From UHGV virus genome UHGV-0038492: a DNA stretch of 64,000 nucleotides, one strand, 5' to 3'. Below the pieces are notes generated by a model. The model worked only from the letters and a program-made list of their open reading frames with translations. It was not told where the DNA came from and did not search any database. Shown here one piece after another: positions 18,763 to 62,653 of the stretch. The position numbers and the translations under genes are program-made. The number at the start of each line of letters is the position of its first letter. The stretch's first letter is position 1. Source of the stretch: a virus.

Positions 18763-18791
18763 CACCACGCTCCGTGAATATGGAGGTGGAC

Positions 18792-47860: not shown

Positions 47861-48169
47861 ATGGAAAACTATTCGGGTTGGGCAATTTCGCAGTGCATTG
47901 GCTATTCTTTACGTTCTTTAGTGCGTACACTTTATAACAAAAACTCGGGTGAAAGCATTTCACCACAGTTACTGGGCAAATTGGAAGTCGAAGTTAACCA
48001 CAAATTAAAACAGTTACTCGACAGCCACGTAAGAACATTGCGTTGGGAGTTTTTGTTACGTGGTAAAAAGCCGTCAATTACCGTTGTAGCAGAAGGCAGT
48101 GAAATCGTTCTCCAATCCAACGCAGACCTGTTTGAAATTTTAACTGAACTAGAAAAGGACAAAATCTGA
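47861..48169 (+). CDS. hypothetical protein (102 aa)
   Basis: Track ORF. Confidence 0.6.
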
Positions 48170-49209
48170 TGAAACAGTATTTAGCATTAATGCAAGACAT
48201 TCTGGATAACGGTGTTGTCAAGAAAGATCGTACAGGCGTAGGGACACTTTCTGTGTTTGGTCGTCAACTACGTTTTGACCTGAAAGAAGGTTTCCCATTA
48301 GTTACTACGAAAAAGGTTCACCTGAAAAGTATCATTCACGAACTACTGTGGTTCTTAGACGGTGACACTAATGTGAAGTACCTGCAAGAGAACGGGGTAA
48401 AAATCTGGAACGAATGGGCGAATGAAGAAGGGGAATTAGGTCCTGTCTACGGACAACAGTGGCGGGAATGGATGGACACCAAAATGCTTTATCTTTGGGA
48501 CGAGCGTAGTAAAGACGTGTTGAGAAAGCGGGGATATCACTACATTGGGACTATTGCAGAGGACAACCCTGAAGAAAGTATCGTTATTTATAGCAAATCT
48601 CACGACCAGATCAGCAAAGTCATCCAACAACTTCGTGAAGATCCTGACTCCCGCCGTATTATTGTTAGTTCCTGGAACGTAAGTGATCTGGACGATATGG
48701 CACTTAACCCGTGTCACAACTACTTCCAATTCTACACAACGGAAATGTCACTACTTGAGAGACTGGAATGGTACGAAGTAAACGAACCGGAAAAAATTGC
48801 GAGCGCACCGCTTATTAAACACGAAGATATTGATGATGAAGAACGACTTCATGTAACTTTAGATCGTGAAGGTATTCCGCGTCGTAAACTTTCGTGTTTC
48901 TTCCTGATGCGATCAAATGACGTGTTCTTAGGTTTACCGTTCAACATCGCTTCGTACGCGTTGTTAACACACATCGTTGCTCAACAACTGAACATGGTTC
49001 CAGACGAACTTGTTTACAGTGGTGTAGATGTCCATCTGTACTCTAACCATCTGGAGCAAGCAAAACTTCAGCTTACACGCGAACCTTACCCGTTACCTAA
49101 ACTCGTTATCAAACGTAAACCTGATTCTATCTTCGAATACAAATACGAAGACTTCGAATTAGTCGGCTATCAAGCTCATCCACATATTGCGGCCCCTGTC
49201 GCGGTTTAA
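48169..49209 (+). CDS. thyA: thymidylate synthase (ThyA family) with two insertions; could alternatively be a dUMP hydroxymethylase
   Basis: Near-identical to bacterial ThyA in the conserved blocks: [51 protein letters not shown], catalytic [29 protein letters not shown]-terminal PVAV; about 35-aa and 45-aa insertions relative to E. coli ThyA (recalled from memory). Confidence 0.9.
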
Positions 49210-49942: not shown

Positions 49943-50082
49943 CTGAAGAAGTTAAAGTAGAAACCGTTAAAGAAACTGACGAATTTGCAATCCCTGGCTT
50001 AGACCCGGAAGCGACCGTAGAGAAGGGTGCTGACCCAACTACGGAAGACGATAACTGCTCAGGCGGGGCTTGCAAAATTTAA
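49939..50082 (+). CDS. small acidic ORF (47 aa, ends ...DDNCSGGACKI)
   Basis: ATG overlaps the preceding stop (ATGA); followed by a terminator hairpin; too short for the track. Confidence 0.3.
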   Translation: MTEEVKVETVKETDEFAIPGLDPEATVEKGADPTTEDDNCSGGACKI

Positions 50083-50090
50083 CAGTTCAC

Positions 50091-50130
50091 GGGGTGCTTA
50101 TGTAGCACCCCTAATCATTATTCTTTTTTT
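50091..50130 (+). terminator. hairpin terminator (GGGGTGCT / AGCACCCC)
   Basis: 8-bp stem 50091-50098 / 50104-50111; T-run TTCTTTTTTTG about 10 nt downstream. Confidence 0.6.
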
Positions 50131-50152
50131 GTTAATCTAATGGAGTTTTAGA

Positions 50153-50983
50153 ATGGGCGAACGTTTTGACATCAACGCTATTTACAACATCGTAGTTAAT
50201 CCTGGTCAACACCTGGAAGAAGTTAACGCACAACTGCGTGCTCTGAATGAGAAGGCAATACAGTTCGACGCCATTTACACAATCGGTGTAAACCCTGGTA
50301 CCAGTCGTATTCGCGTGGAAGGTAAACGACACACCGGCACTCAAGAACTGGACATCGAAACGATTGAAGCACCGATTAAACTTACCGACGCCGTTTATAA
50401 CGGTACGGTAATGCACACCGTGTCGGTTCCGGTCTATTCTATTGCGAACTGTGCAGAACATGTTAAAGGCTGGTCTAAAGAACGCGGCATCCTCGATAAC
50501 GGTAAACTGGAAACTCAAATCACGAAATTCTTTGAAGAGTTTGGTGAAATCGCAACAGGTATCAGTAAAAACAAACCTGAACTGATCATGGATGGCATCG
50601 GTGATGCGTTAGTGGTTTTAGTGAACATCCTGGAACTGGGTAAAGACAAACTGTCTGGTGAAATGACAACCGCTGAAATCATCGAGCACGGTTTACAATT
50701 GCAGGTAGATGATGTCGCTGACGTTGAAGAACGTTTTGATGACAACGGGTATCCGCACCATTTGTATCTCCACGCTACCGAAATCTTCGCTACCGCATTT
50801 ATTCGCTCCGATGCTGGGTTCGATCAACTTAACTGGGCTTTGTACCGCCTTGCGAAACTGGCTCTCTACTATCGTCTTGACATTCGTCATTGTTTCTCTC
50901 TAGCCTGGCACGAAATCAAAGACCGTAAAGGCTATCTGAACGCTGACGGTATCTTTGTAAAAGAAGCAGATTTGGCGAAATAA
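50153..50983 (+). CDS. MazG-like nucleoside triphosphate pyrophosphohydrolase with N-terminal extension (276 aa)
   Basis: ITKFFEEFGEIATGI ... DGIGDALVVLVNILE ... AWHEIKDRKG resemble the MazG EExxE / D-loop helices. Confidence 0.7.
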   Translation: MGERFDINAIYNIVVNPGQHLEEVNAQLRALNEKAIQFDAIYTIGVNPGTSRIRVEGKRHTGTQELDIETIEAPIKLTDAVYNGTVMHTVSVPVYSIANCAEHVKGWSKERGILDNGKLETQITKFFEEFGEIATGISKNKPELIMDGIGDALVVLVNILELGKDKLSGEMTTAEIIEHGLQLQVDDVADVEERFDDNGYPHHLYLHATEIFATAFIRSDAGFDQLNWALYRLAKLALYYRLDIRHCFSLAWHEIKDRKGYLNADGIFVKEADLAK

Positions 50984-50991
50984 ATAAAAGT

Positions 50992-51028
50992 ACCTACCTC
51001 CGAAAGGAGGTAGGTTAACTTTCTTTTT
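50992..51028. terminator. bidirectional terminator (ACCTACCTCC / GGAGGTAGGT, GAAA loop)
   Basis: 10-bp stem 50992-51001 / 51006-51015, followed by TAACTTTCTTTTTTTTCTTTTTTT; U-rich on the other strand as well; between convergent gene ends 50983 (+) and 51038 (-). Confidence 0.85.
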
Positions 51029-51037
51029 TTTCTTTTT

Positions 51038-51601
51038 TTAGGCGTCTGGAACGATTCCAGAAGAGATATACGTCAAACCGTCAAGTTCGGTAACTTTAAT
51101 CAGTTTCGAAATATCCTTACCGTCAGACGGCAGTTCAGTTAAGTACACTTCCAACTGACCTGTCCAAGCCAAAGATCTCCCGTTCATGATAATGATGGTT
51201 TTATCTCTGCTGTCTGGTGCAGCCGTTGGGTTCTCAACTTCGTCATCCGTAATCTGCAAGTTATACTTCGTACGGAACAGTTCCAATACTTCAGAAACGG
51301 TAGTAGCGTTCACACCTGCGACAGAGACAACGAAATCACCCAACAGATGTTCCAAATCCAACCGACGATAAATAACGTCAATTTTACCAAACGTTTTTTG
51401 TTCAATAATTCCCTGGACGCTGAGTTGAGTATTTAATCGTGTAAATTGAGTTTCTGGTGTTTCTACTGCGGGGATATGTGCCGGTGTGCCGAAATTCAAT
51501 TTATCGATTGTAATACCTTTCTCTACCAAACCTGGATTCTTTTTTACTAATAACTCATAAACCAGTTGTTTTCCTGATTTACCTAATAGCGTATTAGCCA
51601 T
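51038..51601 (-). CDS. hypothetical virion-module protein (187 aa)
   Basis: Track ORF; last gene of the minus-strand operon with the 2377-aa and 733-aa genes. Confidence 0.7.
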   Translation of the reverse strand: MANTLLGKSGKQLVYELLVKKNPGLVEKGITIDKLNFGTPAHIPAVETPETQFTRLNTQLSVQGIIEQKTFGKIDVIYRRLDLEHLLGDFVVSVAGVNATTVSEVLELFRTKYNLQITDDEVENPTAAPDSRDKTIIIMNGRSLAWTGQLEVYLTELPSDGKDISKLIKVTELDGLTYISSGIVPDA

Positions 51602-51617
51602 TATTTCCTCTCAAACA

Positions 51618-53819
51618 TTAACGTGCTTGCGGCAGGAAGATGTTCGCGATCTGGCGTGCTGGGATAACATCCAGTGCCGAGTTAATAAAACTACCCTGTG
51701 ACCATGCAGATGCCCAGTTTTGTGCCCAGATGCTCGCATTAATCTTGGCACGCGCAATACCGTTAGTACGTTCGTACAACGTAGCACCACCTAAACACGC
51801 CATAAATTCACTGAATTTGTTATCATCATCCCACACACCTGTGTCAGTAACAATGGGCATGTACATAACGCGAGTCAAATCACGAATAGTAACAGAGATG
51901 TCGCAAGACAGTGGGACGGAATCACCTGGCCGCCAACCTAAACCACCCACACCGAACTGTAACGACATCGACGTTACCATCGCATTACGGAACGAGAAAC
52001 GTCCTTGAGAGTAACACTCTAAGTAGAACGGGTGGGTAAAGGATTGTTTACCGGTTGCGAGCGGACACACTGCTGCAATCCAAAACGAAAGCGGAACTAA
52101 CAAATCCTGGAAAATATCCAGGTCGTTACCCGACCAACAACGTAAAGGAATGGTTAAAGTAATGTCGTCTCCTGATGCGTCAGAACTATCCCAGACTTCT
52201 GGGAAGTCTATCACCGAGGAGTTGTACAACGACATTATCCCTGTCAAATGTAGGGTGTCTGCAACGCCTCGCATCGCTGACTTAATACCGGAAACTAAAG
52301 CATCGACCGCACTAAAACCGGTTTGTCCACCCGACAGGTTAACCTCCAACGAACGCGCTTTTGCTGTTGCGGAGTTTACCATCCCGGAAATTTCAGGTTC
52401 TTTCGTGGAGTTAGAGAACGAACGCGAAACGGTGTCTTTACCATCAATACGCCAAGTAACCCATTGTGAACCGTTCTTAATCTCTGACAGGACGTTATCG
52501 CCAACATCCGCAACCATATCGGTAAACTCTTTAAAGAACGTTCCTACTTTGGATTCATCTTTACCTTTGTTCATCCAATCTTGAACTTCGACAATATCGC
52601 CCTCAGTAAGATCCTCCGGGTTCTTTTCATCCAACGTAGAATTCAACTGCTTAGCTGCTGCCGCACGTTTCTCCATAGCCTGACGGGTTTTTTCCTGCTC
52701 TGACTGGATTTCTGCGGCTTGCTGTTGTAGTTCATTAGCGGTACCACCCACCACCAGGCTATTACTCATCTGTCCGATGAGCTGGTCTTCCTGACTGTCA
52801 ATATCCTGTATCGGAGAAGCGTAACCACCCTTTTCACTTCTGGCAACTTTTTCCAAGTCGTATAGTGAGACTTCGAACTGTTCTGCTTTTAGACGTACGT
52901 TATCGCTGTAAGTAGCATTATAGTAAAACGCACGTAAGCGACTAGCAAACAATTCTTCATCGTCACCGGATTCTACACGAATCGCATCGATAGTTTTAGC
53001 CTGATAGTTCGCCAAGGTCTGGTAACGGTTAATCATTCGGTAAATGTCAAACTCACCGTTCGCTTTCCAGACTTCGGGTAAGGATTTATACCACTCTTCA
53101 CGATCTTTATGGTAACTATTTTCTTTGCTTTCGGTATCGTAGCCCAACGCAAAAGTCCCTAACACCCCTGTAGGTACCAAACGACGGTAAATTAGCTGGG
53201 TATTCAGGATGTTTTGCACCGCGCGCAAATACAGATGCATTGTGGGCTTAACGTAATAGTATCTTGACGTTTCTTTATTCAGCGCTGCCGAAAGAATTCT
53301 CGGTGTAATCAGAATCACCGCAAACGCTACAGTACCCACCGTCGCCCAAATAGCAGCCGCACCGATATACGATGCTGCTGTTCGAATAATTCCTGGATAG
53401 TCACCTGTACGCGCAAGATACGCCAGGTTAGAATCGTACATGTTCGCAAAGAACGAAGCCATACCCAGATACTTCGGTTTACCGAAACGGCAATGAACGT
53501 AAAATGAGTTCTGGCTGATACTTTCGTAGTAATACGTCCCTAAGCGATAAGACCCTGCGGCTGAGGAGTTATAAAGAGACTCGGTACCGCTCTTAGTCGT
53601 GTCGGGTTGTGCAAACGCGCCTGTTGAGGAAGGGTCTGCAAAAAGTGTAAACTGGGGCGGTGTGTTAATCGCTTTACTGCCACCAACTGTGGTGTCTTCA
53701 AACGACATCATACCACCGGAATAGCGGCGCAAGGCCAGGAAACGTTCATCTCGGCCATCGACTGCGCCATTAAATAGGTTTTTGACCCAGCTTGAGTCGT
53801 TAACTGTTCTAGCGTCCAC
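51618..53819 (-). CDS. putative virion structural protein (733 aa)
   Basis: Track ORF; immediately downstream of the 2377-aa gene on the same strand. Confidence 0.75.
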   Translation of the reverse strand: MDARTVNDSSWVKNLFNGAVDGRDERFLALRRYSGGMMSFEDTTVGGSKAINTPPQFTLFADPSSTGAFAQPDTTKSGTESLYNSSAAGSYRLGTYYYESISQNSFYVHCRFGKPKYLGMASFFANMYDSNLAYLARTGDYPGIIRTAASYIGAAAIWATVGTVAFAVILITPRILSAALNKETSRYYYVKPTMHLYLRAVQNILNTQLIYRRLVPTGVLGTFALGYDTESKENSYHKDREEWYKSLPEVWKANGEFDIYRMINRYQTLANYQAKTIDAIRVESGDDEELFASRLRAFYYNATYSDNVRLKAEQFEVSLYDLEKVARSEKGGYASPIQDIDSQEDQLIGQMSNSLVVGGTANELQQQAAEIQSEQEKTRQAMEKRAAAAKQLNSTLDEKNPEDLTEGDIVEVQDWMNKGKDESKVGTFFKEFTDMVADVGDNVLSEIKNGSQWVTWRIDGKDTVSRSFSNSTKEPEISGMVNSATAKARSLEVNLSGGQTGFSAVDALVSGIKSAMRGVADTLHLTGIMSLYNSSVIDFPEVWDSSDASGDDITLTIPLRCWSGNDLDIFQDLLVPLSFWIAAVCPLATGKQSFTHPFYLECYSQGRFSFRNAMVTSMSLQFGVGGLGWRPGDSVPLSCDISVTIRDLTRVMYMPIVTDTGVWDDDNKFSEFMACLGGATLYERTNGIARAKINASIWAQNWASAWSQGSFINSALDVIPARQIANIFLPQAR

Positions 53820-53864
53820 TTTCTACCTCTTTAAGATGGGGGTGGTTTCCCACCCCCGTATGTA

Positions 53865-56800
53865 TTAACCTGCACGTCTAACGTTAAGCTGTCGTGCTGG
53901 CTGTTCAACGGACATTTGTCGTGATGCTGAACCTGCTGGTGCCGTAGGTTTAGACGATACAGTGTTTTGTACCGGCTGCGGGCGTTGTTTAAGGATCGTG
54001 ACAATCTCTTTGAGATAACCCGCCGATTCTTTTGCAACAGCCAACTGTTGAACACTAATCGGATCACCACTGCTGAGAGTAGGCCCGTTTTGTGCATCAG
54101 AAGTAACCGCAGGTGCCGGTTTACTCGTCGCTGCTGCACGCTGCACAGCACCTTCTTTCACCTTCTCGACATCCTCTTCCGGCAACCCTTCATTTCTGGC
54201 TCCGGCTGCAACAGTCTCCCCAATCACTGAGGCATCACCGCCTGCACTACTACCGCCAGGTGACGGTACTGCTGGGCCACCACTGGTTGCGGCTTTGACG
54301 TTGTCAGCACCCATCGCGCCTTTCTCTGCTAACGCATCGTCACGACGCTCAGCATTCGATGCAGGTAGGTTATCAGCCGGATCAGAAATCGACGGATCAT
54401 TAGCTGCTCCTGCTGCTACCGCCGGAGAGGAGGCAACCGCAGGCGTTAGCCCTTTCACCATGTCTTTCGTTGAAGCCGGATTAGCCGCAATTTCGTTTGT
54501 CGCCACAGCACCCATGCGGCGGTTCAGTTCATTAATAACTTCACCAACAGTACGAATACGAACAATCTGTTTGCCACGCATTTCGTAGAAGACCCCCTTA
54601 TTACCTCTAAGGATTTGAGGAGTAATGCCTTCTGCTTTGTCGGCTGGCATGTTCGGATTCTGACGCCACGCATTAAGGAACTTCTTACCACCGCCTGGAC
54701 CCAAGAAGTGATACAGATACGCAACAGCCGGAGGCGGCTCTACACCACCCAGGTCTTTCTGCGCCTGCATGATATTGTCACGAATAAACTGTACGCCGAG
54801 GATGGTATTTGCCCACGGGTCATACTGGTTTACTTGCGGTATACCGTACCGACGAGAATATCCTTTCATCATTCCAGACCACGTTTTGTCAATGAACTGG
54901 AACAACCCTGCTGCCGACGCACCTGGGTTCTTGACACCGTATTTGAAACCAGATTCGGCGTTCGCCATCGCAATCGCGACCGCAGGCGGAACACCTAAGG
55001 TATTTGCGACATCCGCAATCATCGCTTTAACGCCGTCTACGTTAGGTGACTCACCACTACCCAGTTTACTGATTGGATATTTCTCAGCCAAGGTTTTGTA
55101 GTCACCCTCTTTGACGTCTCCGAGTTTAATCCCAGATTGGCCCGTAGAGAACTTCGCGTAATTGCTAATACCCATCTCACCCACAACTTGAGACAAGTCG
55201 CCCGGAGTACCGTAAGACGCACCACCGTTTGGCAAGTACCCATCGTTAGACGCTGTACCCCAATCAACGACACCTTTGAAACGATCTTTGGTGTCTTCGT
55301 CGGTTTGGTACATTCTCGTCGCACGATCGGCTTTCTGCCACTTCGCACGTTTACCCGCTGCGGGTGTAGACCGCAGGGTATTACGAACAGCCAGGTCAGG
55401 TTCTTTGGACAGTTCTTTCAGGTTGGCAAGTTCGGTAGCAACAGAACCTGCGTCGGTGTTTGCTTCTTCACCCAGTGGGTTGAATGGAATCTCCCACACG
55501 GACTGACGAATACCACCCTTCATGTTGTAAGCGCCACGAATCATCAACGCCAATTCGTACATGAACCCACCGGATACTTTCAGTTCGGTAGGGTCTGCTT
55601 GCGGAATGTAACGTTTCAGACCAACAACGTAGGTCATATACGCCGGTAAGAAACGGTTGTAGAACCAGTTCTTACAACGCTCCTCTTTAGGGCCACCTAT
55701 CAGGTCAGGCGAGATAACCGCAATGGCTTCTTTCCAGTTGCCTTTATAGGTACAGTTCTTCACATCAATGTCTTTCAACACGTTCTTCTCTAACAGCGTG
55801 AAAAGATTACGTGTTGTTTGGTTGATAGTAACTGCGCCATAGGTCTTCCACCTGATCGATTCCAGGTCTTCCAAATCGCTTTTCTTCGGTAACGAATGCC
55901 AATCAACTTGGATTTGAACCTGCTCGGTTCCATCTTCCCAACCTTCAACCTTCGCAACTTTCTCGTTACGTTCAGCATCCGCATTCGCCAGTACCTGACT
56001 GGTTTCAGCAACAGACGCAACTTTATGTCCTTCGACAGCGTCACGCATACCCGAACGTTGTTTCCGTTTGTCGTCAGTACGCATGTTGATTGACCGCCAC
56101 ACACGTTCCTGTGCTTCGACAACCTCTTCCCCTGACAAGAACTCTGCCGGAGTAAAGGTAACGAAGTCCCACGCTTTAGAGAACCAACCCTGGTTAACTT
56201 TACGCGGGTCAGTCAACGAACGGAACTCCGCAGAATCTTTACCCATCTTCATTTTGTTGTAGAGGGTAATCATGTCCGCTTTCGACACTTTCTTCGGATC
56301 ACCGACATCTGCTAGAGCGATATCGTTATCCATGGACTTCAGTGCTGAAATCCAGCGGAGGTAAATCGGTGCGAAACGTTGTAGCATAAACGCAGTAAAT
56401 GCTAACATCTCACCACGTTCTTCTAAGTTAACACCGAACCCTTCTGCGAGTTTCTTCACGTCTTCGGAAGACAAGCCACGTAATTGTGCTTCACCCCCTT
56501 CGGTATACGAGACGTAAGGTTTCAAAGCGTCTTCTAAATAACGGGCTTTCATACCGTCTTCAGAAGACCACTGGTCGTAGTCACGGAAACCGTATTGTGC
56601 CAGACGCATATAGTCGAGGTATTGTGCTTTCACACGGGTGGCGCATTTATACGCCCAATAACCCAGACCAGCGACAGTCGCACCGATCGCAATTGCAGGC
56701 CATCCCACCGCCGCTACCACCGTAGACGCAGCCGAGGCTACCGCAGTCACTGCCGGAACCGCTAAACGTTGTACGGCAAACTTACCAACGTTCCACGCTG

Positions 56801-59800
56801 CTTTACCAAGGAACCCGGTGGGTTTAAAAATACCCCACTTCGCAACTTTACCCAGTATCGAACCCACCGTACCTAAGATACTCACGATTGGCCCTACTAA
56901 CGGTAAGTCTTTGAGGAAGTCCATCACCCCGCCTTTACGTCCTTTCTGCTCAGCGGTTTTCTTGGCTTTCTCTTCTTCTTTAGAACGTCTACGACGACGG
57001 AAGAATTGGAAGTAGTCACGTTTTTCATCGTTGGCTGCCGGTTTGTTACGCTGTCCGAACTTACTGAACATCGTACGAATCAGGCCATCTGGTGCACCGG
57101 CTCGCTCCGCAGAATCACGCATGGTGTTAAACCAGGACATTTCCTGAAGGTTAACCATCCGGTTCAAACGTTCCAGTAATGCTGAACCAACACTCTTCGC
57201 TTTCTGCTTACCTTTGTTGATAACGCGTCCTGCGGTATCCGTTGCGGTTTCGAAATCCTCCTTCGCTGCGTTAAACACGCGTGTTGGAGAAACCTTACCA
57301 CGAGCGTACAAGTGTTGGCGGTAAAACTCCGCAACGTCGTCATCACGACCTGCTAAACGCGACTCCGCCCGATAACGTGTGGCAATGTCGTAGCGTGGAT
57401 CACGGAAACTATCTACTGTTTCGCCAAAGCGTCCACGGAAACGGCCAAACCACCCTTTACCCGCAGCACCCCAACGAGACAGTCTATCGCCAACGCCATG
57501 ACGGAAACGTGAGAATCGGTCACGTTGTCTGCCTCGCCAATCCCGGAAATTCTGGAAGTAGTCTTTAAATCCGTCGCGGAAATCCTTAACACGGTTAAGC
57601 ATCCCTTTGATAGATTTCGAGCCAACGTTTTTCTCCAGTTGCTCCGTCCAGGATTCATCTTCAGGCTCACCGTCTAAACGACGGTTAAGGAGTTTATAGA
57701 TACGAATCAGGATATGGTTGGTCTTACGGCCATTCGACCAAGAGAACATGCTGAAGCCACCGCCAGAACCACCTTCCTTACGATTCTGCCACCACCGGGT
57801 AAGCGGGTTGTCAGTCGCTAACTCTTTGAATTTCTCAAAGCCACGTTTTGCATTGTTCCACAAACGAGCAGGCATTCCGGTTACGCGAGAAATCATGCTT
57901 TGTAAACGCGTTTTCTCACTGCCCTCAGGAATCTCATTAAGCCACTCACGCGCTTTCTCGAAGATAGACGCTGCTCTTGGCGAGATTAGTCCAATCAGTT
58001 TCTTCGGTAAGTTAACAGCTTTGTTTACTGCTGTACCTGCTTTACCGGAGATATACTGGAACAGGGCCTGGAGTTTACCGCCTTTATAGAAGCGCAATTT
58101 ACCTGCTGCCGCTAGATCGGCCGCTGCGAGAATCAAGTTCCCGGCTTCGTCGACAATATCACGACCTAGCTTAATGTCGTCTAACGAACGGAGTTGTACC
58201 AGCTTATTAGTCTTAGGGTCAGCCTGATAATACTCACCTGCCTCTAAGCGGCTACCTTGTAAAACGACATTGCCTTTTTCGTCGTAGATGTCTCGAACAC
58301 CAAGAACACCTTTCCCGAAGGCGACCGCTGAATTCCAGCCTGTGGACAATGTACCAGTAACTAAACCTTTCAGTCGTTCAAAAACACCCGGGCCGTCAGA
58401 TGGGCCACCGGAGAATTTCCCACGGATAAAACTGCCCAGTGACTGTAAACGTCCTTTCCCTCTCAGGAACATGTTCTTCGCAAAACGACCTGCACCCGTA
58501 CCGGTGTCCCAAAGTACGCCCGCCCAACGACGGAACAGACCGCTTTCACCAAGCACGATGCGTTTACGCTTGCGTTTGTTACCGGCGCTACCTGCATCTT
58601 CAGAAGTGTCATCCTCACCGTCACGACCACCGCCTAAGCTGGCCAGCAGAATACCCTCCTCATCCATGTTCTTGACATGTTTCAGAATTTCCTGCACGGT
58701 GTTGGATTCGGATTTGTTACGGATAGCATCGACGATTCTATCAAACTGCTGTTCTAGTCCTGCGGTGGTATCAGGGCGTTCACTTAACAGTTCAACAAAG
58801 TTGGTGGATTTTTCACCGTAAAGGACAGCAGCAAGTTGTCGTGCTGACAGTCCACGACCACCACGACCGCCTTTACCTTTAACGGAGTCAATCGTCGACT
58901 CGTCACCGGTTACGGAGGCGTCTACCCCTAAACGACGCAAATAGTCACCTAACGCAGAACCGTTTTTCAGTTTGCGCTGGATTTCTTGTTCACGCGTTAA
59001 CGAACGGCCGGAACGGGTTTTCCCCATGGCCAGGTCATTAAACAGCGTATACGGATCGTTAATGTCTTTATCTACATCAAACCGATCGTTCTTCGCATCG
59101 TACTTAAAGATGCCTGCATCACGTAACGCATTCTCACCGTAGATAATTGAAGCTTCGTCTACCGTGTTTTGACGTGCACGTATCGTTGACTGAATGGCTG
59201 AAATCTTACTAGCAATCTCATTGCTAAGTTCGTGATGACCGCCTGTCAGTTCTGAAGACCGTGCTTCTAAGACCGCCTGAATCGCTTCTACCGCGTTTGC
59301 ATTCATGTAACGATACATGTGCATCGGGTCTTTCAGCAGACTGCCTACGTCGAATGCCTTACCTTCAGACGCACGGGATTCAATATAGTCCGCCAGCGCC
59401 TGGCGAGTTTTCGAATCCAGGGTTTTGTCTTTGTCGATAAAGTCAACGGTTTCGTTAATGTACTGCTGTAAACGCTTCCGCTGTTCATCGTTCGCAACCG
59501 CTTTACGGACACGGTTACCGATAACTTTACGGTCAATCATCCCACGCGTGGTTAAATCGTACACCTGGTCGTGGTGTTCGCCGTACCCGCGACGAATAGA
59601 TTTGTTAATCTCCGTCAGCAAAGTCGGGATGACTTCCGTGATGCTAAGATACGCTTTACGGTCGAACTTCGCGGCGGCGGATAACGCTTCTGCTGAACGT
59701 TCTTCTAAAGCTAATCCCTCACGACGCAGCGGTGTCACTAACCCCATCTCGTGCATTAAACGGAAGACGGTGGCCAATGGGCCGTCTATCTCACCAGCAA

Positions 59801-60998
59801 TCGCCGAGTTAGAGATAGACGATAAGTTACCGAACCCGTATCGTGCCAGCTGAAGCCGTTTCATGACTTCTGGGTTCTTTTCTAACTCACTGCGTGTCCA
59901 GTTCTGTAAACGTTCTACCTGAGGCTGTAAGAATCGTTTTGCTAACCAACTACCAGCAAACCCTGCGACTTTACCTCGGGAGTTCGTACGACGACGTTCT
60001 GGCGACAGCGTAGAACTATCTTCCATGCCGAAGTCGTCTTCCTGACTCATTGACAGAACTTGTTCTAATATCCCGCGTCCGTCGCTGAAGATATTCGAAA
60101 TCTTTTTCTTCGCGTTCTCACGAATCTGATCAATAAAGTTATCCGCGTAACGCAAGGGGTTCATCCATTCGGCAGCTTTACGTTTTACGTTAGCCCAACG
60201 AACTTCAGAGAATTCCTCTTTTGCGTAGTCCGGCAACGCGGTGTTTTTAACAATCGCTTCAAGTGCCGGGGTGTTACGGCTAAACTCATCCTGTTTAAGT
60301 TTAGCAATATCTTGCAACGCGAATAACGTACGGTATTGCAGCTCTAACTGTTTACGCTGAACGTTAAGCATTACCCCACGACTTAAACTGGTCGTCAGGT
60401 TAACGTCTTTCGCAATACCGATAACCGTCTGGAACAGCGCATCGGACTTCATGTCCTTGATGGTGTCGCGAAGACGGTCTTCTACCATTCCTTCCTGAAC
60501 CTCGCGTTGTTGTTCAGGTGTTTGTGGTGTGCCTGCAAAAACAGAGTCTAACTCACGATCCATTAACGCTTGTTTAGGATCGTAATTCCCGTAATCGTAC
60601 TGGTCGCTTTTCGCCCACTTGTCGATCTTACGGGTTACACTGTCAGGCAAATACCGTTTTAGGGTTGGGCCTAACTGACGAGCTTGTGCCTTCACTACAC
60701 GGGAGGTCTTTTCAATCTCGTCTTTCGTATGGGCCAGAATGTCTTGACCTGCGGCTTTGACGTTCTTATAACCTTCATAAGCGTCAGTCGCCGGTTTTGG
60801 CATTCCTTTTAAAATGACCTGATCACGTTTATTTTCGGGCCAGATAGTCGACAACGCCGACTTACGGGCAGCACGAAATGTGTCCATGACCGGGTTACGC
60901 GATTGGTCTTGTTGACGAGGGGGCTCATCAAAATCGTCCCAGTCGTCCATGTTATCAAGATCGATTTCATCGAAATCGTCTTTACCTTTTTTAGCCAT
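53865..60998 (-). CDS. giant virion protein (2377 aa) with internal hydrophobic region and soluble-lytic-transglycosylase domain; resembles phiKZ gp181-type tail / ejection protein
   Basis: Single 7134-nt ORF; N-terminus MAKKGKDDFDEIDLDNMDDWDDFDE; hydrophobic stretch LPLVGPIVSILGTVGSILGKV...AVTAVASAASTVVAAVGWPAIAIGATVAGLGYWAY; SLT motif NAESGFKYGVKNPGASAAGLFQFIDKTW encoded near 54880-54950. Confidence 0.85.
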   Translation of the reverse strand: MAKKGKDDFDEIDLDNMDDWDDFDEPPRQQDQSRNPVMDTFRAARKSALSTIWPENKRDQVILKGMPKPATDAYEGYKNVKAAGQDILAHTKDEIEKTSRVVKAQARQLGPTLKRYLPDSVTRKIDKWAKSDQYDYGNYDPKQALMDRELDSVFAGTPQTPEQQREVQEGMVEDRLRDTIKDMKSDALFQTVIGIAKDVNLTTSLSRGVMLNVQRKQLELQYRTLFALQDIAKLKQDEFSRNTPALEAIVKNTALPDYAKEEFSEVRWANVKRKAAEWMNPLRYADNFIDQIRENAKKKISNIFSDGRGILEQVLSMSQEDDFGMEDSSTLSPERRRTNSRGKVAGFAGSWLAKRFLQPQVERLQNWTRSELEKNPEVMKRLQLARYGFGNLSSISNSAIAGEIDGPLATVFRLMHEMGLVTPLRREGLALEERSAEALSAAAKFDRKAYLSITEVIPTLLTEINKSIRRGYGEHHDQVYDLTTRGMIDRKVIGNRVRKAVANDEQRKRLQQYINETVDFIDKDKTLDSKTRQALADYIESRASEGKAFDVGSLLKDPMHMYRYMNANAVEAIQAVLEARSSELTGGHHELSNEIASKISAIQSTIRARQNTVDEASIIYGENALRDAGIFKYDAKNDRFDVDKDINDPYTLFNDLAMGKTRSGRSLTREQEIQRKLKNGSALGDYLRRLGVDASVTGDESTIDSVKGKGGRGGRGLSARQLAAVLYGEKSTNFVELLSERPDTTAGLEQQFDRIVDAIRNKSESNTVQEILKHVKNMDEEGILLASLGGGRDGEDDTSEDAGSAGNKRKRKRIVLGESGLFRRWAGVLWDTGTGAGRFAKNMFLRGKGRLQSLGSFIRGKFSGGPSDGPGVFERLKGLVTGTLSTGWNSAVAFGKGVLGVRDIYDEKGNVVLQGSRLEAGEYYQADPKTNKLVQLRSLDDIKLGRDIVDEAGNLILAAADLAAAGKLRFYKGGKLQALFQYISGKAGTAVNKAVNLPKKLIGLISPRAASIFEKAREWLNEIPEGSEKTRLQSMISRVTGMPARLWNNAKRGFEKFKELATDNPLTRWWQNRKEGGSGGGFSMFSWSNGRKTNHILIRIYKLLNRRLDGEPEDESWTEQLEKNVGSKSIKGMLNRVKDFRDGFKDYFQNFRDWRGRQRDRFSRFRHGVGDRLSRWGAAGKGWFGRFRGRFGETVDSFRDPRYDIATRYRAESRLAGRDDDVAEFYRQHLYARGKVSPTRVFNAAKEDFETATDTAGRVINKGKQKAKSVGSALLERLNRMVNLQEMSWFNTMRDSAERAGAPDGLIRTMFSKFGQRNKPAANDEKRDYFQFFRRRRRSKEEEKAKKTAEQKGRKGGVMDFLKDLPLVGPIVSILGTVGSILGKVAKWGIFKPTGFLGKAAWNVGKFAVQRLAVPAVTAVASAASTVVAAVGWPAIAIGATVAGLGYWAYKCATRVKAQYLDYMRLAQYGFRDYDQWSSEDGMKARYLEDALKPYVSYTEGGEAQLRGLSSEDVKKLAEGFGVNLEERGEMLAFTAFMLQRFAPIYLRWISALKSMDNDIALADVGDPKKVSKADMITLYNKMKMGKDSAEFRSLTDPRKVNQGWFSKAWDFVTFTPAEFLSGEEVVEAQERVWRSINMRTDDKRKQRSGMRDAVEGHKVASVAETSQVLANADAERNEKVAKVEGWEDGTEQVQIQVDWHSLPKKSDLEDLESIRWKTYGAVTINQTTRNLFTLLEKNVLKDIDVKNCTYKGNWKEAIAVISPDLIGGPKEERCKNWFYNRFLPAYMTYVVGLKRYIPQADPTELKVSGGFMYELALMIRGAYNMKGGIRQSVWEIPFNPLGEEANTDAGSVATELANLKELSKEPDLAVRNTLRSTPAAGKRAKWQKADRATRMYQTDEDTKDRFKGVVDWGTASNDGYLPNGGASYGTPGDLSQVVGEMGISNYAKFSTGQSGIKLGDVKEGDYKTLAEKYPISKLGSGESPNVDGVKAMIADVANTLGVPPAVAIAMANAESGFKYGVKNPGASAAGLFQFIDKTWSGMMKGYSRRYGIPQVNQYDPWANTILGVQFIRDNIMQAQKDLGGVEPPPAVAYLYHFLGPGGGKKFLNAWRQNPNMPADKAEGITPQILRGNKGVFYEMRGKQIVRIRTVGEVINELNRRMGAVATNEIAANPASTKDMVKGLTPAVASSPAVAAGAANDPSISDPADNLPASNAERRDDALAEKGAMGADNVKAATSGGPAVPSPGGSSAGGDASVIGETVAAGARNEGLPEEDVEKVKEGAVQRAAATSKPAPAVTSDAQNGPTLSSGDPISVQQLAVAKESAGYLKEIVTILKQRPQPVQNTVSSKPTAPAGSASRQMSVEQPARQLNVRRAG

Positions 60999-61027
60999 AA
61001 CGTTTAATCCGTATCAGGAGATTTAGC

Positions 61028-62653
61028 GTGAATAAACTTAATTGGGTTGACTTTTATCTGCTCAATGTAAACAAGTCTCTTGTGTCGCGATTACGACCCG
61101 TCACGACCACAGATACTTTTCAAGGGTTGACAAAAAACTTTCACCCTGAAGGGTTATACTCCACGGAGATATTCGGTCTTACGGGAAGTGAAGCCCGAGA
61201 CTCAACGTTTTCTTACATTGATATTAAATTAGATATCATTTCGCCGACGGTGTGTTTGGCGTTATTCCAACTAAAACAACTCTACGAAGAAATTTGTTCT
61301 GGAAAACGCTACGCAACCTGGAGCGAAAAAGAAAAAGATTTTGAACCGGCTTTGCCTGGCGACGCTGGCGCAGATACCGGTTTTAACTTTTTCCTTAGTC
61401 ACTACAACGACTTAAAACCCGGACGTAACGAATCGTTACAACGTGACGAAACGGTGGATTTCTTCGAGAAGTTCCGTCCCGTGAGTCTTAGCCGCTATGT
61501 TCTCGTATTACCCGCGGGCTTACGTGATTTGGTGGTTAGACAAGACGGTAGGGAACAGGAAGAGGAAATCGGCGGGTTATATCGTCGTTTGATTTCTTTG
61601 GCCAGGGCGATTCCTGACCGTGCTACACGGGTTGAATTAACGAACCCTGTGCGATGGAAGCTCCAACAAACCTTTAACGAAATCTGGATGTACTTCTTTA
61701 ACATCCAGGACGGTAAAGGGGGCTTCCAACGTCGTAAAGTGACGTCACGTAAACTGATGAACGGGACACGTAACGTATTGTCCTCATTCTCCACAGGCTC
61801 TAAATGCATGGGGCGTGAGGATGCGATTCGACCAACTGACACCAAAATTGGTTTGTATCAGGGTCTGAAAGCGTTACTGCCGGTTGCGCAATACCAGATA
61901 CGTGAACGTTACCTCGGTAACATTCGTGCTGGCGATGGCAACCTTTACGGCGTAAACACCAAAACGCTTAAACGCGAGTTCTTGGAAGTTGGGGGTCGAG
62001 TTTACGACACCTTTACCACGGACGACGGTATCGAAACATTAATTAACCGGATGGAAGCTCGCGAGCTTCGTCATCAACCGTTAATGATTAACGATACCCA
62101 TTACGTCGCGTTGGTCTACCAAGACAACAAACATTTTAAGGTGTTCTACGATATCGATGAACTGCCTAAAACGTTTGACCGTAAAAACGTCCATGGAATG
62201 ACCCTGGTAGAACTACTCTACTTATCGGGTTACGATCTGTGGAACAACTATTTCGGTTTCGTTACACGTTATCCCGTCACCGGTCGAGGCTCGACGTACT
62301 CATCGACCATAAGATTGGAGACCACCACGTCATCTTTATACTTAAAAGAACTGGAAGATGACTGGGAGACTGAAAAGCCTCGCGGGGCAATCAGTTATCC
62401 TGACCGCTCGGTTCCAACCTTTGTTGAGTCGATGGCACCGCACCCGTCACGACTGGGTGGCTTAGGGGGCGACTACGATGGTGACACCGGTTCACTTAAC
62501 GCGCCTATGTCGCAAGAAGCGCTCGAGGAAAACCGTAACTGGATACACTCGAAGAACTACTGGTTCGATTCTGACGGGAATTTCAAAATCAATCCTGTCA
62601 ACAACGTGATTAAACGTGCGACGCAAGCGTTATTAAAGAATCCAAAAGGCTAA
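61028..62653 (+). CDS. beta-prime-like subunit fragment of a split multisubunit RNA polymerase (N-terminal part incl. catalytic DxDGD), 541 aa
   Basis: GTG start preceded by AGGAG; [14 protein letters not shown] resembles beta-prime [36 protein letters not shown] resembles [44 protein letters not shown] resembles the catalytic [22 protein letters not shown] (E. coli beta-prime recalled from memory). Confidence 0.8.
   Translation: [541 protein letters not shown]

What the first reader, a model, noticed from the sequence alone, without database searches (positions are those of the whole stretch)
53865..60998. 2377-aa virion protein combining a hydrophobic segment cluster with a lytic-transglycosylase domain near residue 2030
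A single 7.1-kb gene. The SLT signature (ESGFKYGVKNPGASAAGLFQF) lies about 330 residues from the C-terminus, and a cluster of Gly/Ala/Val-rich hydrophobic stretches lies around residue 1400. This is the architecture expected for a cell-envelope-penetrating tail or ejection protein, comparable to phiKZ gp181. Together with the 733-aa and 187-aa genes downstream it forms a minus-strand operon.
Basis: partly seen in the sequence, partly recalled or inferred. Interest (0 to 1): 0.5.

Follow-up and report, generated by a model that had tools for sequence, protein, structure and literature searches.

The report
Jumbo-phage tail tape-measure/lysin giant protein
This 7.1-kb gene is a new but ordinary member of the giant tail protein family typified by phiKZ gp181 and SPN3US gp239: a long helical protein with a membrane-inserting hydrophobic cluster and a cell-wall-cutting enzyme domain, which most likely sits inside the tail tube and opens the bacterial envelope at infection.

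Summary
Window 53865..60998 (-) is one 2377-aa ORF. It has a hydrophobic cluster at aa 1364-1450 and an SLT domain whose Glu-Ser motif starts at aa 2015, 363 residues from the C-terminus.

The protein is a full-length orthologue (about 61% identity, same gene order) of Salmonella phage SPN3US gp239 and Erwinia phage Asesino gp261. It is a distant homologue (E = 6e-41) of phiKZ gp181. It comes from a chimallivirus-type jumbo phage with no close DNA match among deposited phages.

Published work on orthologues:
- gp239 is in virions and is lost with the tail.
- gp181 is muralytic and takes no transposon insertions.
- The 733-aa neighbour's orthologues form a ring of the tail-tube initiator complex.

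Best reading: a tape-measure-type tail-lumen protein, expelled first, that cuts peptidoglycan and inserts into the inner membrane.

Family-wide features I documented:
- A conserved hydrophobic cluster.
- A duplicated helical module found only in this family.
- A 70-aa repeat with 1-5 copies.
- Swapping of the muralytic module (SLT, GH19, M23, VanY).

The operon claim is plausible but is qualified by a conserved hairpin after the giant gene. This is a new member of a known kind, of modest interest.

The parts
53865..60998 (-). Giant gene, 2377 aa: orthologue of SPN3US gp239, Asesino gp261 and phiKZ gp181
   Evidence: ORF list and translation. PHROG 3201 matched at 2094.8 bits, best stretch aa 1-1036 onto profile positions 1-1024 of 2408. 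tblastn shows 100% coverage at about 61% identity to the SPN3US and Asesino group. phmmer against the phiKZ-type protein gives E = 6e-41.
60894..60998 (-). Acidic N-terminus, rich in D, F and L (aa 1-35, net charge -8); conserved across the family
   Evidence: Composition. N-termini of 29 family members.
58299..60893 (-). N-terminal long-helix region (aa 36-900). It holds the most conserved N-terminal motif, NTALPDYAKEEF (about aa 251-262), and a confidently folded helical part at about aa 350-690.
58074..58298 (-). One copy of a ~70-aa repeat module (aa 901-975), a small beta unit. Copy number is 1-5 across the family.
   Evidence: An HMM built from 10 seed copies finds 1 copy here, 2 in most members, 3 in the phiKZ type and up to 5 elsewhere. 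AF2 shows strands there at pLDDT 62-78.
56910..58073 (-). Strongly basic, helix-rich and poorly conserved region (aa 976-1363, net charge +35) that leads into the hydrophobic cluster
   Evidence: Composition. Conservation profile.
56649..56909 (-). Hydrophobic cluster (aa 1364-1450). Putative TM segment 1364-1386, then an amphipathic Lys-rich stretch, then a 39-residue uncharged run 1412-1450 with a central G-W-P, probably a helical hairpin.
   Evidence: Hydropathy and uncharged-run analysis. Translation. Shuffle test. An equivalent run lies about 15 aa upstream of the R-[LF]-A-Q-Y-G motif in nearly all 117 family members. P1434 and Y1450 are invariant.
55401..56648 (-). Conserved all-helical middle region (aa 1451-1866): a tandem duplication of a ~140-aa module, each copy with R-x-x-x-Y-G ... 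R-F-x-P-x-Y. It is found only in this protein family.
   Evidence: AF2 pLDDT is 80-90. hhalign of aa 1458-1600 against 1709-1843 gives probability 97.7%, E = 1.6e-12. The exhaustive search finds 327 representatives, nearly all proteins of 2100-2800 aa with the module at about aa 1300-1900. No Pfam hit. No PDB fold match.
55194..55400 (-). Predicted disordered linker (aa 1867-1935)
   Evidence: AF2 pLDDT is below 50. Conservation is low and gap fraction high.
54477..55193 (-). Lytic transglycosylase (SLT/GH23, gp144-like) domain, aa 1936-2174
54954..54956 (-). Codon of Glu2015, the predicted catalytic acid (E-S motif)
   Evidence: Translation. Aligns with Glu115 of gp144. E2015, S2016, Q2034, F2035, Y2094 and H2097 are at least 90% conserved in 30 sequences.
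53868..54476 (-). Low-complexity C-terminal tail rich in Ala, Pro and Ser (aa 2175-2377). It ends in a short motif, ...Q-P-x-x-x-L-N-V-x-R..., that is conserved across the family.
   Evidence: Composition. Last 22 residues of 29 members.
53838..53857 (-). GC-rich hairpin (GGGGGTGG-GAAA-CCACCCCC) 7 nt after the stop codon, with no U-tract here
   Evidence: Sequence. Folding gives -19.9 kcal/mol for the 45-nt intergenic region that holds the hairpin. A hairpin in the same position occurs in SPN3US, Asesino and KTN4, followed by a T-run in the last two.
51618..53819 (-). [quoted passage not shown]
   Evidence: PHROG 3181. PDB sequence hits 11lx_H 'Tail tube initiator complex protein gp203' (2e-54) and 9xqs_K PHIKZ182 (9e-54). 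Structural role from PMC13250141 and bioRxiv 10.64898/2026.04.21.720040.
51038..51601 (-). 187-aa gene: DUF7941 virion protein, matching only the N-terminal domain and linker part of the profile
   Evidence: Pfam PF25613, E = 4.6e-23, profile positions 3-174 of 276. PHROG 2935 'virion structural protein'.
50992..51015 (.). Bidirectional intrinsic terminator between the 187-aa gene and the convergent MazG-like gene
   Evidence: 10-bp stem with 6 GC pairs and T-runs on both strands. An equivalent hairpin with a T-run follows the homologous gene in SPN3US and Asesino.

Best explanation
The gene encodes the chimallivirus giant tail protein. It is a tape-measure-type protein that most likely lies inside the tail-tube lumen and doubles as the envelope-breaching device.

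Proposed mechanism:
1. A few copies (probably 3 or 6) are built into the tail. The helix-rich N-terminal ~1360 residues extend along the tube. The C-terminal end, with its conserved terminal motif, docks near the hub and tube-initiator rings. One of those rings is made by the product of the next gene.
2. After sheath contraction and loss of the spike, the protein is expelled ahead of the DNA.
3. The gp144-like lytic transglycosylase domain (catalytic Glu2015) cuts peptidoglycan locally.
4. The conserved hydrophobic cluster (aa 1364-1450) inserts into the inner membrane. Probably together with the family-specific duplicated helical module, it anchors the tube or forms the conduit through which DNA and co-injected proteins pass.

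Shown here: the orthology, the domain anatomy, conservation of the catalytic residues, family-wide conservation of the hydrophobic cluster, and the gene context.

Shown by others on orthologues: presence in the virion and dependence on the tail (SPN3US gp239), muralytic activity (phiKZ gp181), and essentiality (phiKZ orf181).

Inferred: the lumen location, the ruler function, the orientation, the expulsion, and the membrane insertion.
For: Orthology and gene context:
- Full-length orthology to SPN3US gp239 and Asesino gp261. Homology to the phiKZ-type gp181. PHROG 3201.
- Conserved synteny in four phages: a divergent vRNAP beta gene upstream and the tube-initiator 'spacer' gene downstream.

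Anatomy:
- Relatives carry GH19, M23+SLT or VanY+SLT at the same position. What is kept is a cell-wall hydrolase as such, whatever its chemistry.
- The hydrophobic cluster is conserved in position in nearly all 117 relatives. Its 39-residue uncharged run is absent from 5000 shuffles.
- The N-terminal half is predicted 65% helical with very long helices and only generic coiled-coil fold matches.

Literature:
- gp239 is the 259-kDa 'tail tape measure protein' detected by MS. It is absent or depleted in tailless mutants (PMC5105663, PMC10052503).
- gp181 has muralytic activity (Briers 2008, as reviewed in PMC5380687).
- phiKZ orf181 takes no transposon insertions over 6,714 bp and is called the likely tape measure (PMC12676376).
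- The phiKZ and Goslar cryo-EM papers never mention this protein in their main text. That fits a lumen protein with symmetry mismatch, as described for tape measures in PMC10996793.
- The phiKZ lumen is about 68 A wide (PMC13250141), roomy enough for folded domains.
- T5 pb2 has the same module order: coiled coil, then a 46-residue hydrophobic stretch, then a muralytic domain, then a C-terminal tip docked in the hub (bioRxiv 10.1101/2022.09.20.507954).
Against: - No tape-measure HMM family matches the protein (Pfam and NCBIfam).
- No tail-chaperone gene lies next to it.
- At 1.5 A per residue the whole protein would be about 3570 A, far longer than a ~2000 A tail. Only part of it can act as a ruler.
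- In the one two-point test possible, the length before the hydrophobic cluster does not scale with tube length. phiKZ type has about 1297 aa for 43 rings (1622 A). Goslar has about 1255 aa for 46 rings (1801 A).
- No structure places any family member in the lumen.
- Peak hydropathy of the cluster is not exceptional by itself, and the phiKZ-type protein has a weaker cluster.
- AF2 confidence is low for the N-terminal helices and for the hydrophobic cluster.
Confidence: 0.65

Rival explanations
1. It is an ejected tail-lumen protein that breaches the envelope (lysin plus membrane anchor or channel) but is not the length ruler. Tail length is set some other way.
For: - Length does not track tube length between the phiKZ type and Goslar.
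- No tape-measure HMM family matches.
- The protein is about 1.7 times longer than a ruler for a 2000 A tail would need to be.
Against: - No other tape-measure candidate is named in SPN3US, phiKZ or Goslar in the papers read (PMC5105663, PMC12676376, PMC13250141).
- The N-terminal half is long-helix rich.
- The 70-aa repeat varies in copy number across the family, the kind of length variation seen in rulers.
Confidence: 0.17
2. It is part of the baseplate's central cell-puncturing needle, the older model for phiKZ gp181.
For: Reviews list gp181 as a 'needle-like cell-puncturing device' at the baseplate, citing Briers 2008 (PMC5380687). The gene lies next to a central-baseplate gene.
Against: - The phiKZ atlas builds the spike from gp164 plus gp163.1, the hub from gp101, the spacer from gp182 and the tube initiator from gp88. 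gp181 is never mentioned (PMC13250141).
- Goslar's hub and spike density is fully assigned without gp204.
- No beta-helix or OB-fold spike features appear in the models.
Confidence: 0.07
3. It is a head-packaged ejection protein that builds a trans-envelope channel, like T7 gp16 (an internal core protein with a transglycosylase domain).
For: - Chimalliviruses do inject many head proteins (bioRxiv 10.64898/2026.04.21.720040).
Against: - SPN3US gp239 is missing from tailless particles that keep the head proteins, and it is depleted together with sheath and tube in a tail mutant (PMC5105663, PMC10052503).
- The gene sits with tail-tube initiator and baseplate genes.
Confidence: 0.06
4. It is a tail fibre, the label carried by most database records.
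For: Many GenBank records and PHROG 3201 call it '(putative) tail fiber protein'.
Against: - No fibre-type folds or repeats. It is mainly helical.
- It contains a hydrophobic cluster and a muralytic domain.
- phiKZ fibres are built from the gp131-135 paralogues (PMC13250141).
- The label looks like propagated annotation based on size.
Confidence: 0.02

Closest known systems
Salmonella phage SPN3US gp239 (AEP84072.1; 'tail tape measure protein' in the Thomas-lab papers, 'putative tail fibre protein' in GenBank) and Erwinia phage Asesino gp261 / phiEaH2 homologue
   Same: - End-to-end alignment at about 61% identity and the same length (2372-2379 aa).
- The same hydrophobic cluster, a single 70-aa repeat, an SLT domain and the same C-terminal motif.
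- Identical gene order: gp239, gp238, gp237, with divergent vRNAP beta genes.
   Different: About 39% of residues differ. DNA similarity is only about 73% and is confined to the start of the gene and the RNAP genes. The window phage is therefore a separate species or genus-level lineage. A 99%-identical copy exists only in an unannotated SRA assembly.
Pseudomonas phage phiKZ gp181 (structural peptidoglycan hydrolase; here represented by KTN4_221, same species)
   Same: - Homologous N-terminal about 550 aa and C-terminal about 900 aa, including the duplicated module and the SLT domain.
- The same neighbours, vRNAP beta and gp182.
- Experimentally muralytic and essential (PMC5380687, PMC12676376).
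   Different: - Only about 22-24% identity.
- 2237 aa, with three copies of the 70-aa repeat instead of one.
- Much weaker hydrophobic cluster: maximum hydropathy 1.22 against 1.89.
- The middle third is not alignable.
phiKZ gp144 endolysin / neck 'wedge' (PDB 3BKH, 9XPS)
   Different: gp144 is a 260-aa protein with an N-terminal peptidoglycan-binding domain. Here the catalytic domain is embedded near the end of a 2377-aa protein, and the gp144 N-terminal domain is not matched (the alignment covers gp144 residues 95-252 only).
Phage T5 tape measure protein pb2
   Same: The same order of functional modules: helical ruler, hydrophobic stretch long enough for two membrane helices, muralytic domain, C-terminal tip. 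The proposed mechanism of expulsion, membrane insertion and local wall digestion is also the same (bioRxiv 10.1101/2022.09.20.507954).
   Different: - No detectable sequence homology. Nothing from T5 appeared in the PDB or family searches.
- pb2 is half the size, uses a metallopeptidase, belongs to a non-contractile tail and is proposed to insert into the outer membrane.
- pb2 is cleaved between the hydrophobic stretch and the enzyme. Cleavage was not examined here.
- pb2 lacks the duplicated helical module.
Phage T7 gp16 (internal core protein with N-terminal lytic transglycosylase)
   Different: gp16 is packaged in the head and has the enzyme at its N-terminus. The orthologue of the present protein travels with the tail (PMC5105663).
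Phage T4 gp29 (tape measure) plus gp5 (spike lysozyme)
   Same: A contractile tail with a lumen protein next to hub and tube-initiator genes. The two-layer tube initiator (T4 gp48/gp54) corresponds to Goslar gp62/gp203 (bioRxiv 10.64898/2026.04.21.720040), and gp203 is the orthologue of the 733-aa neighbour here.
   Different: In T4 the wall-cutting enzyme is on the spike protein. In chimalliviruses the spike (phiKZ gp164) is separate and the enzyme is fused to the presumed tape measure.

Membership tests
phiKZ gp181 / SPN3US gp239 giant tail protein family (PHROG 3201) | Sequence homology over the whole length to family members | tested here: met
   PHROG 3201 at 2094.8 bits. 100% coverage at about 61% identity to SPN3US and Asesino. 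E = 6e-41 to the phiKZ type.
phiKZ gp181 / SPN3US gp239 giant tail protein family (PHROG 3201) | Conserved neighbourhood: divergent virion-RNAP beta genes upstream, gp182/gp238-type tube-initiator spacer gene downstream | tested here: met
   Window ORFs 61028..62653 (+) are RNAP beta (PHROG 2986), and 51618..53819 (-) matches PHIKZ182 and Goslar gp203. The same order holds in SPN3US, Asesino, KTN4 and Goslar.
phiKZ gp181 / SPN3US gp239 giant tail protein family (PHROG 3201) | Size of about 2200-2600 aa, with a hydrophobic cluster followed by the duplicated helical module and a C-terminal muralytic module | tested here: met
phiKZ gp181 / SPN3US gp239 giant tail protein family (PHROG 3201) | Virion (tail) component | not testable with these tools
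   Known only for orthologues (PMC5105663, PMC10052503).
Family-1 lytic transglycosylase / GH23 (Pfam SLT PF01464), gp144-like subgroup | Profile match above the curated threshold | tested here: met
   33.3 bits against a cut-off of 21.3, aa 1997-2082.
Family-1 lytic transglycosylase / GH23 (Pfam SLT PF01464), gp144-like subgroup | Catalytic Glu in an E-S motif, plus the G-L-x-Q motif | tested here: met
   E2015-S2016 aligns with gp144 E115-S116. GLFQF lies at 2031-2035. Y2094 and H2097 align with gp144 Y197 and H200. All are at least 90% conserved.
Family-1 lytic transglycosylase / GH23 (Pfam SLT PF01464), gp144-like subgroup | Lysozyme-like alpha-helical fold | tested here: met
Family-1 lytic transglycosylase / GH23 (Pfam SLT PF01464), gp144-like subgroup | Muralytic activity producing 1,6-anhydro-muropeptides | not testable with these tools
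   Needs a zymogram or HPLC-MS of digestion products.
Phage tail tape measure proteins | Match to a curated tape-measure profile (for example Pfam PhageMin_Tail or TMP_2, NCBIfam tape_meas models) | tested here: not met
   SLT is the only Pfam hit. There are no NCBIfam hits, and no hits for the separate segments even at E <= 5.
Phage tail tape measure proteins | Extended, predominantly alpha-helical or coiled-coil body | tested here: met
Phage tail tape measure proteins | Length proportional to tail length (about 1.5 A per residue) | tested here: inconclusive
   The whole protein is too long: 3566 A against a phiKZ-type tail of about 2000 A. The part before the hydrophobic cluster would fit (1363 aa gives 2044 A). 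It does not scale between phiKZ and Goslar. This is a two-point comparison only, and the tail length of this phage is unknown.
Phage tail tape measure proteins | Gene adjacent to tail-assembly chaperone genes (G/GT type) and to hub or distal-tail genes | tested here: inconclusive
   A hub-proximal tube-initiator gene is adjacent. No chaperone-like gene is adjacent, because the upstream gene is the divergent RNAP beta. Chaperone adjacency is not universal in contractile-tail phages.
Phage tail tape measure proteins | Located inside the tail-tube lumen | not testable with these tools
   Neither 2026 structural paper mentions the protein. That is compatible with a lumen location but is not evidence for it.

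The most novel reading that the evidence does not exclude
The conserved hydrophobic cluster and the family-exclusive duplicated helical module may be the missing device that couples the chimallivirus tail tube to the host inner membrane and seeds the early-phage-infection (EPI) vesicle. In this reading the giant protein is expelled first and inserts its hairpins into the inner membrane. It then stays as a collar at the tube tip, so that the DNA and co-injected proteins inflate a membrane bud rather than entering the cytoplasm.

Reasons to consider it:
- Cryo-ET shows the phiKZ inner tube attached to the vesicle, and the way the vesicle forms is stated to be an open question (PMC13282480; bioRxiv 10.64898/2026.04.21.720040).
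- The module is found only in this family.
- All close relatives identified here belong to Chimalliviridae.

Nothing here tests the idea directly.
Probability: 0.2. Interest if true: 0.75.

Novelty: new member of a known kind. Interest (0 to 1): 0.3.

Why it matters
On its own this gene adds one more orthologue to a family whose founding members have been studied: phiKZ gp181 by biochemistry and Tn-seq, SPN3US gp239 by virion proteomics. The finding is therefore largely confirmatory.

Its value is as an entry point to a gap. The largest essential tail protein of chimalliviruses goes unmentioned in the two 2026 structural papers read here, and most database records mislabel it 'tail fiber'. How these phages cross the envelope into a membrane vesicle is also unknown.

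The family-level anatomy assembled here gives concrete, mutable targets for that question:
- A positionally conserved membrane-type hairpin.
- A duplicated helical module exclusive to the family.
- Interchangeable wall hydrolases.
- A repeat module of variable copy number.
- Conserved terminal motifs.

Tried and rejected
- **Near-identical DNA search.** It found only a 191-bp, 74% match, so the phage is not a deposited isolate. I switched to a protein-level search.
- **Curated profiles for the rest of the protein.** Pfam at E <= 5 on four segments and NCBIfam found nothing.
- **Regular expression for the 70-aa repeat.** It was too brittle, so I replaced it with an HMM.
- **Sigma-70 promoter scan.** It is uninformative for this phage type. 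Only 4 sites were found against 12.6 expected, and no promoter could be assigned.
- **Ruler test using cryo-EM ring counts for phiKZ and Goslar.** It showed no proportionality. I treat it as inconclusive, not as support.
- **Supplement of the SPN3US MS paper.** It held no gp239 rows in the text available, so no copy number could be extracted.
- **One paper listed as mentioning gp239 (PMC10643120).** It had no such passage in the main text.
- **Peak hydropathy as evidence for membrane segments.** Rejected after the shuffle control.
Full report
**1. Observation**

The window carries one uninterrupted minus-strand ORF, 53865..60998, with an ATG start and 2377 codons.
- The stretch has higher G+C (0.50 against about 0.45) and a negative GC skew.
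- The quoted motif ESGFKYGVKNPGASAAGLFQF is present. Its Glu is residue 2015 (codon 54954-54956), 363 residues from the C-terminus.
- Pfam SLT matches aa 1997-2082 above its gathering score.
- The hydrophobic cluster is at aa 1364-1450. It has a 23-residue segment, an amphipathic Lys-rich stretch, and a 39-residue run without charged or strongly polar residues that has G-W-P at its centre.
- A run of that length never appeared in 5000 shuffles of the protein. Peak hydropathy by itself is not unusual.

**2. Identity**

There is no close DNA relative among 50,697 deposited phages. At protein level the gene product aligns end to end, at about 61% identity, with a group of proteins variously labelled 'putative tail fiber', 'lytic transglycosylase' or 'hypothetical':
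- Erwinia phages Asesino, phiEaH2 and Stratton.
- Salmonella phage SPN3US (gp239).
- Proteus phage 7.
- E. coli phage EC001.

It matches PHROG 3201 at 2095 bits. The phiKZ-type gp181 (KTN4_221, 2237 aa) aligns over the N-terminal about 550 and the C-terminal about 900 residues, E = 6e-41.

The gene order is the same in the window, SPN3US, Asesino, KTN4/phiKZ and Goslar. Virion-RNAP beta genes diverge upstream, and a gp182/gp238/gp203-type gene follows. The closest genera, Seoulvirus and Erskinevirus, belong to Chimalliviridae. A 99%-identical protein with identical neighbours exists in an unannotated assembly of run SRR24039119.

**3. Anatomy (shown here)**

- **aa 1-35:** acidic D/F/L-rich N-terminus, conserved across the family.
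- **aa 36-900:** long helices. The model of aa 1-1150 is 65% helix and 3% strand. Part of it (about aa 350-690) is confidently folded. No fold match exceeds generic coiled coils.
- **aa 901-975:** one copy of a ~70-aa beta-containing repeat. There are two copies in most relatives, three in the phiKZ type and up to five elsewhere.
- **aa 976-1363:** strongly basic (net +35) and poorly conserved.
- **aa 1364-1450:** the hydrophobic cluster. In nearly all of 117 relatives a 25-60-residue uncharged hydrophobic run sits about 15 residues before the conserved R-[LF]-A-Q-Y-G motif. P1434 and Y1450 are invariant. The phiKZ-type protein has only a weak version.
- **aa 1451-1866:** a confidently predicted all-helical region.
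  - It is an internal tandem duplication: hhalign probability 97.7%, E = 1.6e-12.
  - No Pfam family or PDB fold matches it.
  - An exhaustive search of 1.84 billion representatives finds 327 hits. Nearly all are proteins of 2100-2800 aa carrying the region at the same relative position, so it is exclusive to this family.
- **aa 1867-1935:** disordered linker.
- **aa 1936-2174:** the SLT domain.
  - Glu2015/Ser2016 lie on gp144 Glu115/Ser116, and Tyr2094/His2097 lie on Tyr197/His200. All are at least 90% conserved.
- **aa 2175-2377:** an Ala/Pro/Ser-rich tail ending in a short motif that is conserved across an otherwise divergent region.

In relatives, the enzyme at the equivalent position can be GH19, M23 plus SLT, or VanY plus SLT. 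Goslar gp204 is annotated with a chitinase-like COG3179 domain. What is conserved is therefore a wall hydrolase at that place, whatever its chemistry.

**4. Neighbours and transcription**

The 733-aa product matches Goslar gp203 ('Tail tube initiator complex protein', E = 2e-54) and PHIKZ182 (E = 9e-54) in the PDB. In phiKZ, gp182 forms the hexameric 'spacer' ring between the tube initiator gp88 and the hub gp101 (PMC13250141). In SPN3US, gp238 is essential and tail-associated (PMC5105663).

The 187-aa product is a DUF7941 protein, matching the N-terminal domain and linker part of the profile only. The Goslar preprint proposes that this family forms head-to-tail filaments on the peripheral baseplate. 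All three genes therefore encode tail parts.

- The gaps between the genes are 45 and 16 nt.
- A strong bidirectional terminator (50992-51015) follows the third gene, and equivalents occur in SPN3US and Asesino.
- A stable GC-rich hairpin directly after the giant gene's stop codon is conserved in position in all four phages compared. It is followed by a T-run in Asesino and KTN4 but not here.
- Co-transcription is thus plausible but may be attenuated.
- Only 29 nt separate the giant gene from the divergent RNAP gene.
- Sigma-70-like sites are depleted: 4 found against 12.6 expected. That fits phage-RNAP-driven transcription.

**5. What others have shown on orthologues**

- SPN3US gp239 (259 kDa) is detected in virions. 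It is absent from tailless gp64-mutant particles and is depleted together with the sheath in a tube mutant. The authors call it the tape measure protein (PMC5105663, PMC10052503).
- phiKZ gp181 is muralytic, at 60,000 U/mg (Briers 2008, via PMC5380687).
- phiKZ orf181 and orf182 take no transposon insertions, and orf181 is called the likely tape measure (PMC12676376).
- The phiKZ atlas identifies 40 proteins and the Goslar model 28. The main text of neither paper mentions gp181 or gp204, or a tape measure.
- The phiKZ spike is gp164/gp163.1 and the hub is gp101. The older 'needle' assignment of gp181 therefore does not hold.
- Tape measures are commonly invisible in symmetrised maps because of symmetry mismatch (PMC10996793).
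- The phiKZ lumen is about 68 A wide.

**6. Mechanism**

Best supported (confidence about 0.65): a tape-measure-type lumen protein that is also the envelope-breaching device, as set out under 'best explanation'.

The closest functional analogue is T5 pb2, which has the same module order and for which expulsion, membrane insertion and local wall digestion are proposed. That comparison is an analogy, not homology.

Weak points:
- No tape-measure profile matches.
- The protein is about 1.7 times longer than a ruler for a tail of about 2000 A would need to be.
- The length before the hydrophobic cluster does not scale with tube length. phiKZ has about 1297 aa for 1622 A, and Goslar has about 1255 aa for 1801 A.

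The main rival is therefore that it is an ejected lumen protein but not the ruler. The spike, head-ejection-protein and tail-fibre readings are each contradicted by published structural or proteomic data on orthologues.

**7. Novelty and score**

This is a new member of a known kind.

I did not find the following features described in the papers read: the positional conservation of the hydrophobic cluster, the duplicated family-exclusive module, the variable repeat, the hydrolase swapping and the conserved terminal motifs. My literature coverage is limited to open-access text.

The most novel reading still open is that this protein couples the tail tube to the inner membrane and seeds the EPI vesicle. 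It has a probability of about 0.2 and would be of high interest if true. Overall interest is 0.3.

Noticed in passing
window 53838-53857 (-); L001 15120-15167; L003 11141-11182; L002 12583-12637: A stable GC-rich hairpin directly after the giant gene's stop codon is conserved in position in four phages, although the sequences differ. It is followed by a T-run in Asesino and KTN4 (terminator-like) but not in the window or in SPN3US.
   Followed up: partly
window 58074-58298 (-), aa 901-975; relatives P0088, P0096, P0098, P0110, KTN4_221: An unannotated ~70-aa repeat module (D-I-Y..G..L....L..G-x-Y-Y...D-I-x-G-x-V-x-D..G-N-x-V-L-S) varies from 1 to 5 copies across the family. There is one copy here.
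   Followed up: partly
window 55401-56648 (-), aa 1451-1866: The most conserved unannotated region is a tandem duplication of a helical module (hhalign probability 97.7%). It occurs almost only in proteins of 2100-2800 aa: 327 representatives out of 1.84 billion. A few short or repetitive hits (P0119, P0126, P0233) look like artefacts and were not examined.
   Followed up: partly
relatives P0042-P0045, P0110, P0116 (GH19); P0111 (VanY+SLT, plus Peptidase_S74 at 824-878); P0114 (M23+SLT); P0084/P0092 (PF18925); L006 2418-9176 (Goslar gp204, COG3179): The muralytic module near the C-terminus is exchanged or doubled in different branches of the family, while the rest of the architecture is kept.
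   Followed up: partly
window 51618-53819 (-): Besides Goslar gp203 and PHIKZ182, the 733-aa tube-initiator 'spacer' homologue matches PDB chain 36za_rp, named 'Capsid decorator gp77', at E = 2.6e-53 over aa 443-660. The same domain is apparently used in a capsid decoration protein of another phage.
   Followed up: no
window 51038-51601 (-): The 187-aa gene is a short DUF7941 protein, matching profile positions 3-174 of 276. [quoted passage not shown] The Goslar preprint proposes that the family forms a filament 'cloud' on the baseplate.
   Followed up: partly
window 60999-61027 and 50000-62000: Only 29 nt separate the giant gene from the divergent RNAP beta gene, so their promoters must lie within coding sequence. 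Sigma-70-like promoter matches are depleted in this 12-kb stretch: 4 found against 12.6 +/- 3.6 expected.
   Followed up: no
window 1-50200: The rest of the window is typical chimallivirus content:
- a 1441-aa virion structural protein (3760-8085, -)
- a baseplate assembly protein (9876-10841, -)
- an SbcC-like nuclease subunit (18774-21296)
- an RNase H-like ribonuclease (30785-32296)
- a UvsX-like recombinase (38406-39902)
- thymidylate synthase (48169-49209)
- a MazG-like pyrophosphatase (50153-50983)

There are no tRNA genes. ORF 12572-13723 (+, 383 aa) had no PHROG match.
   Followed up: no
literature: PMC13250141; bioRxiv 10.64898/2026.04.21.720040; L006 2418-9176: Neither 2026 virion-structure paper mentions the largest tail gene product (phiKZ gp181, Goslar gp204) or a tape measure in its main text. 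Most GenBank records still call it a tail fibre.
   Followed up: yes
L004 (Logan SRR24039119 contig, 111 kb): A 99%-identical copy of the giant protein with the same flanking genes occurs in an unannotated public-run assembly. The cluster lists 635 member sequences. The sample's origin was not looked up.
   Followed up: no
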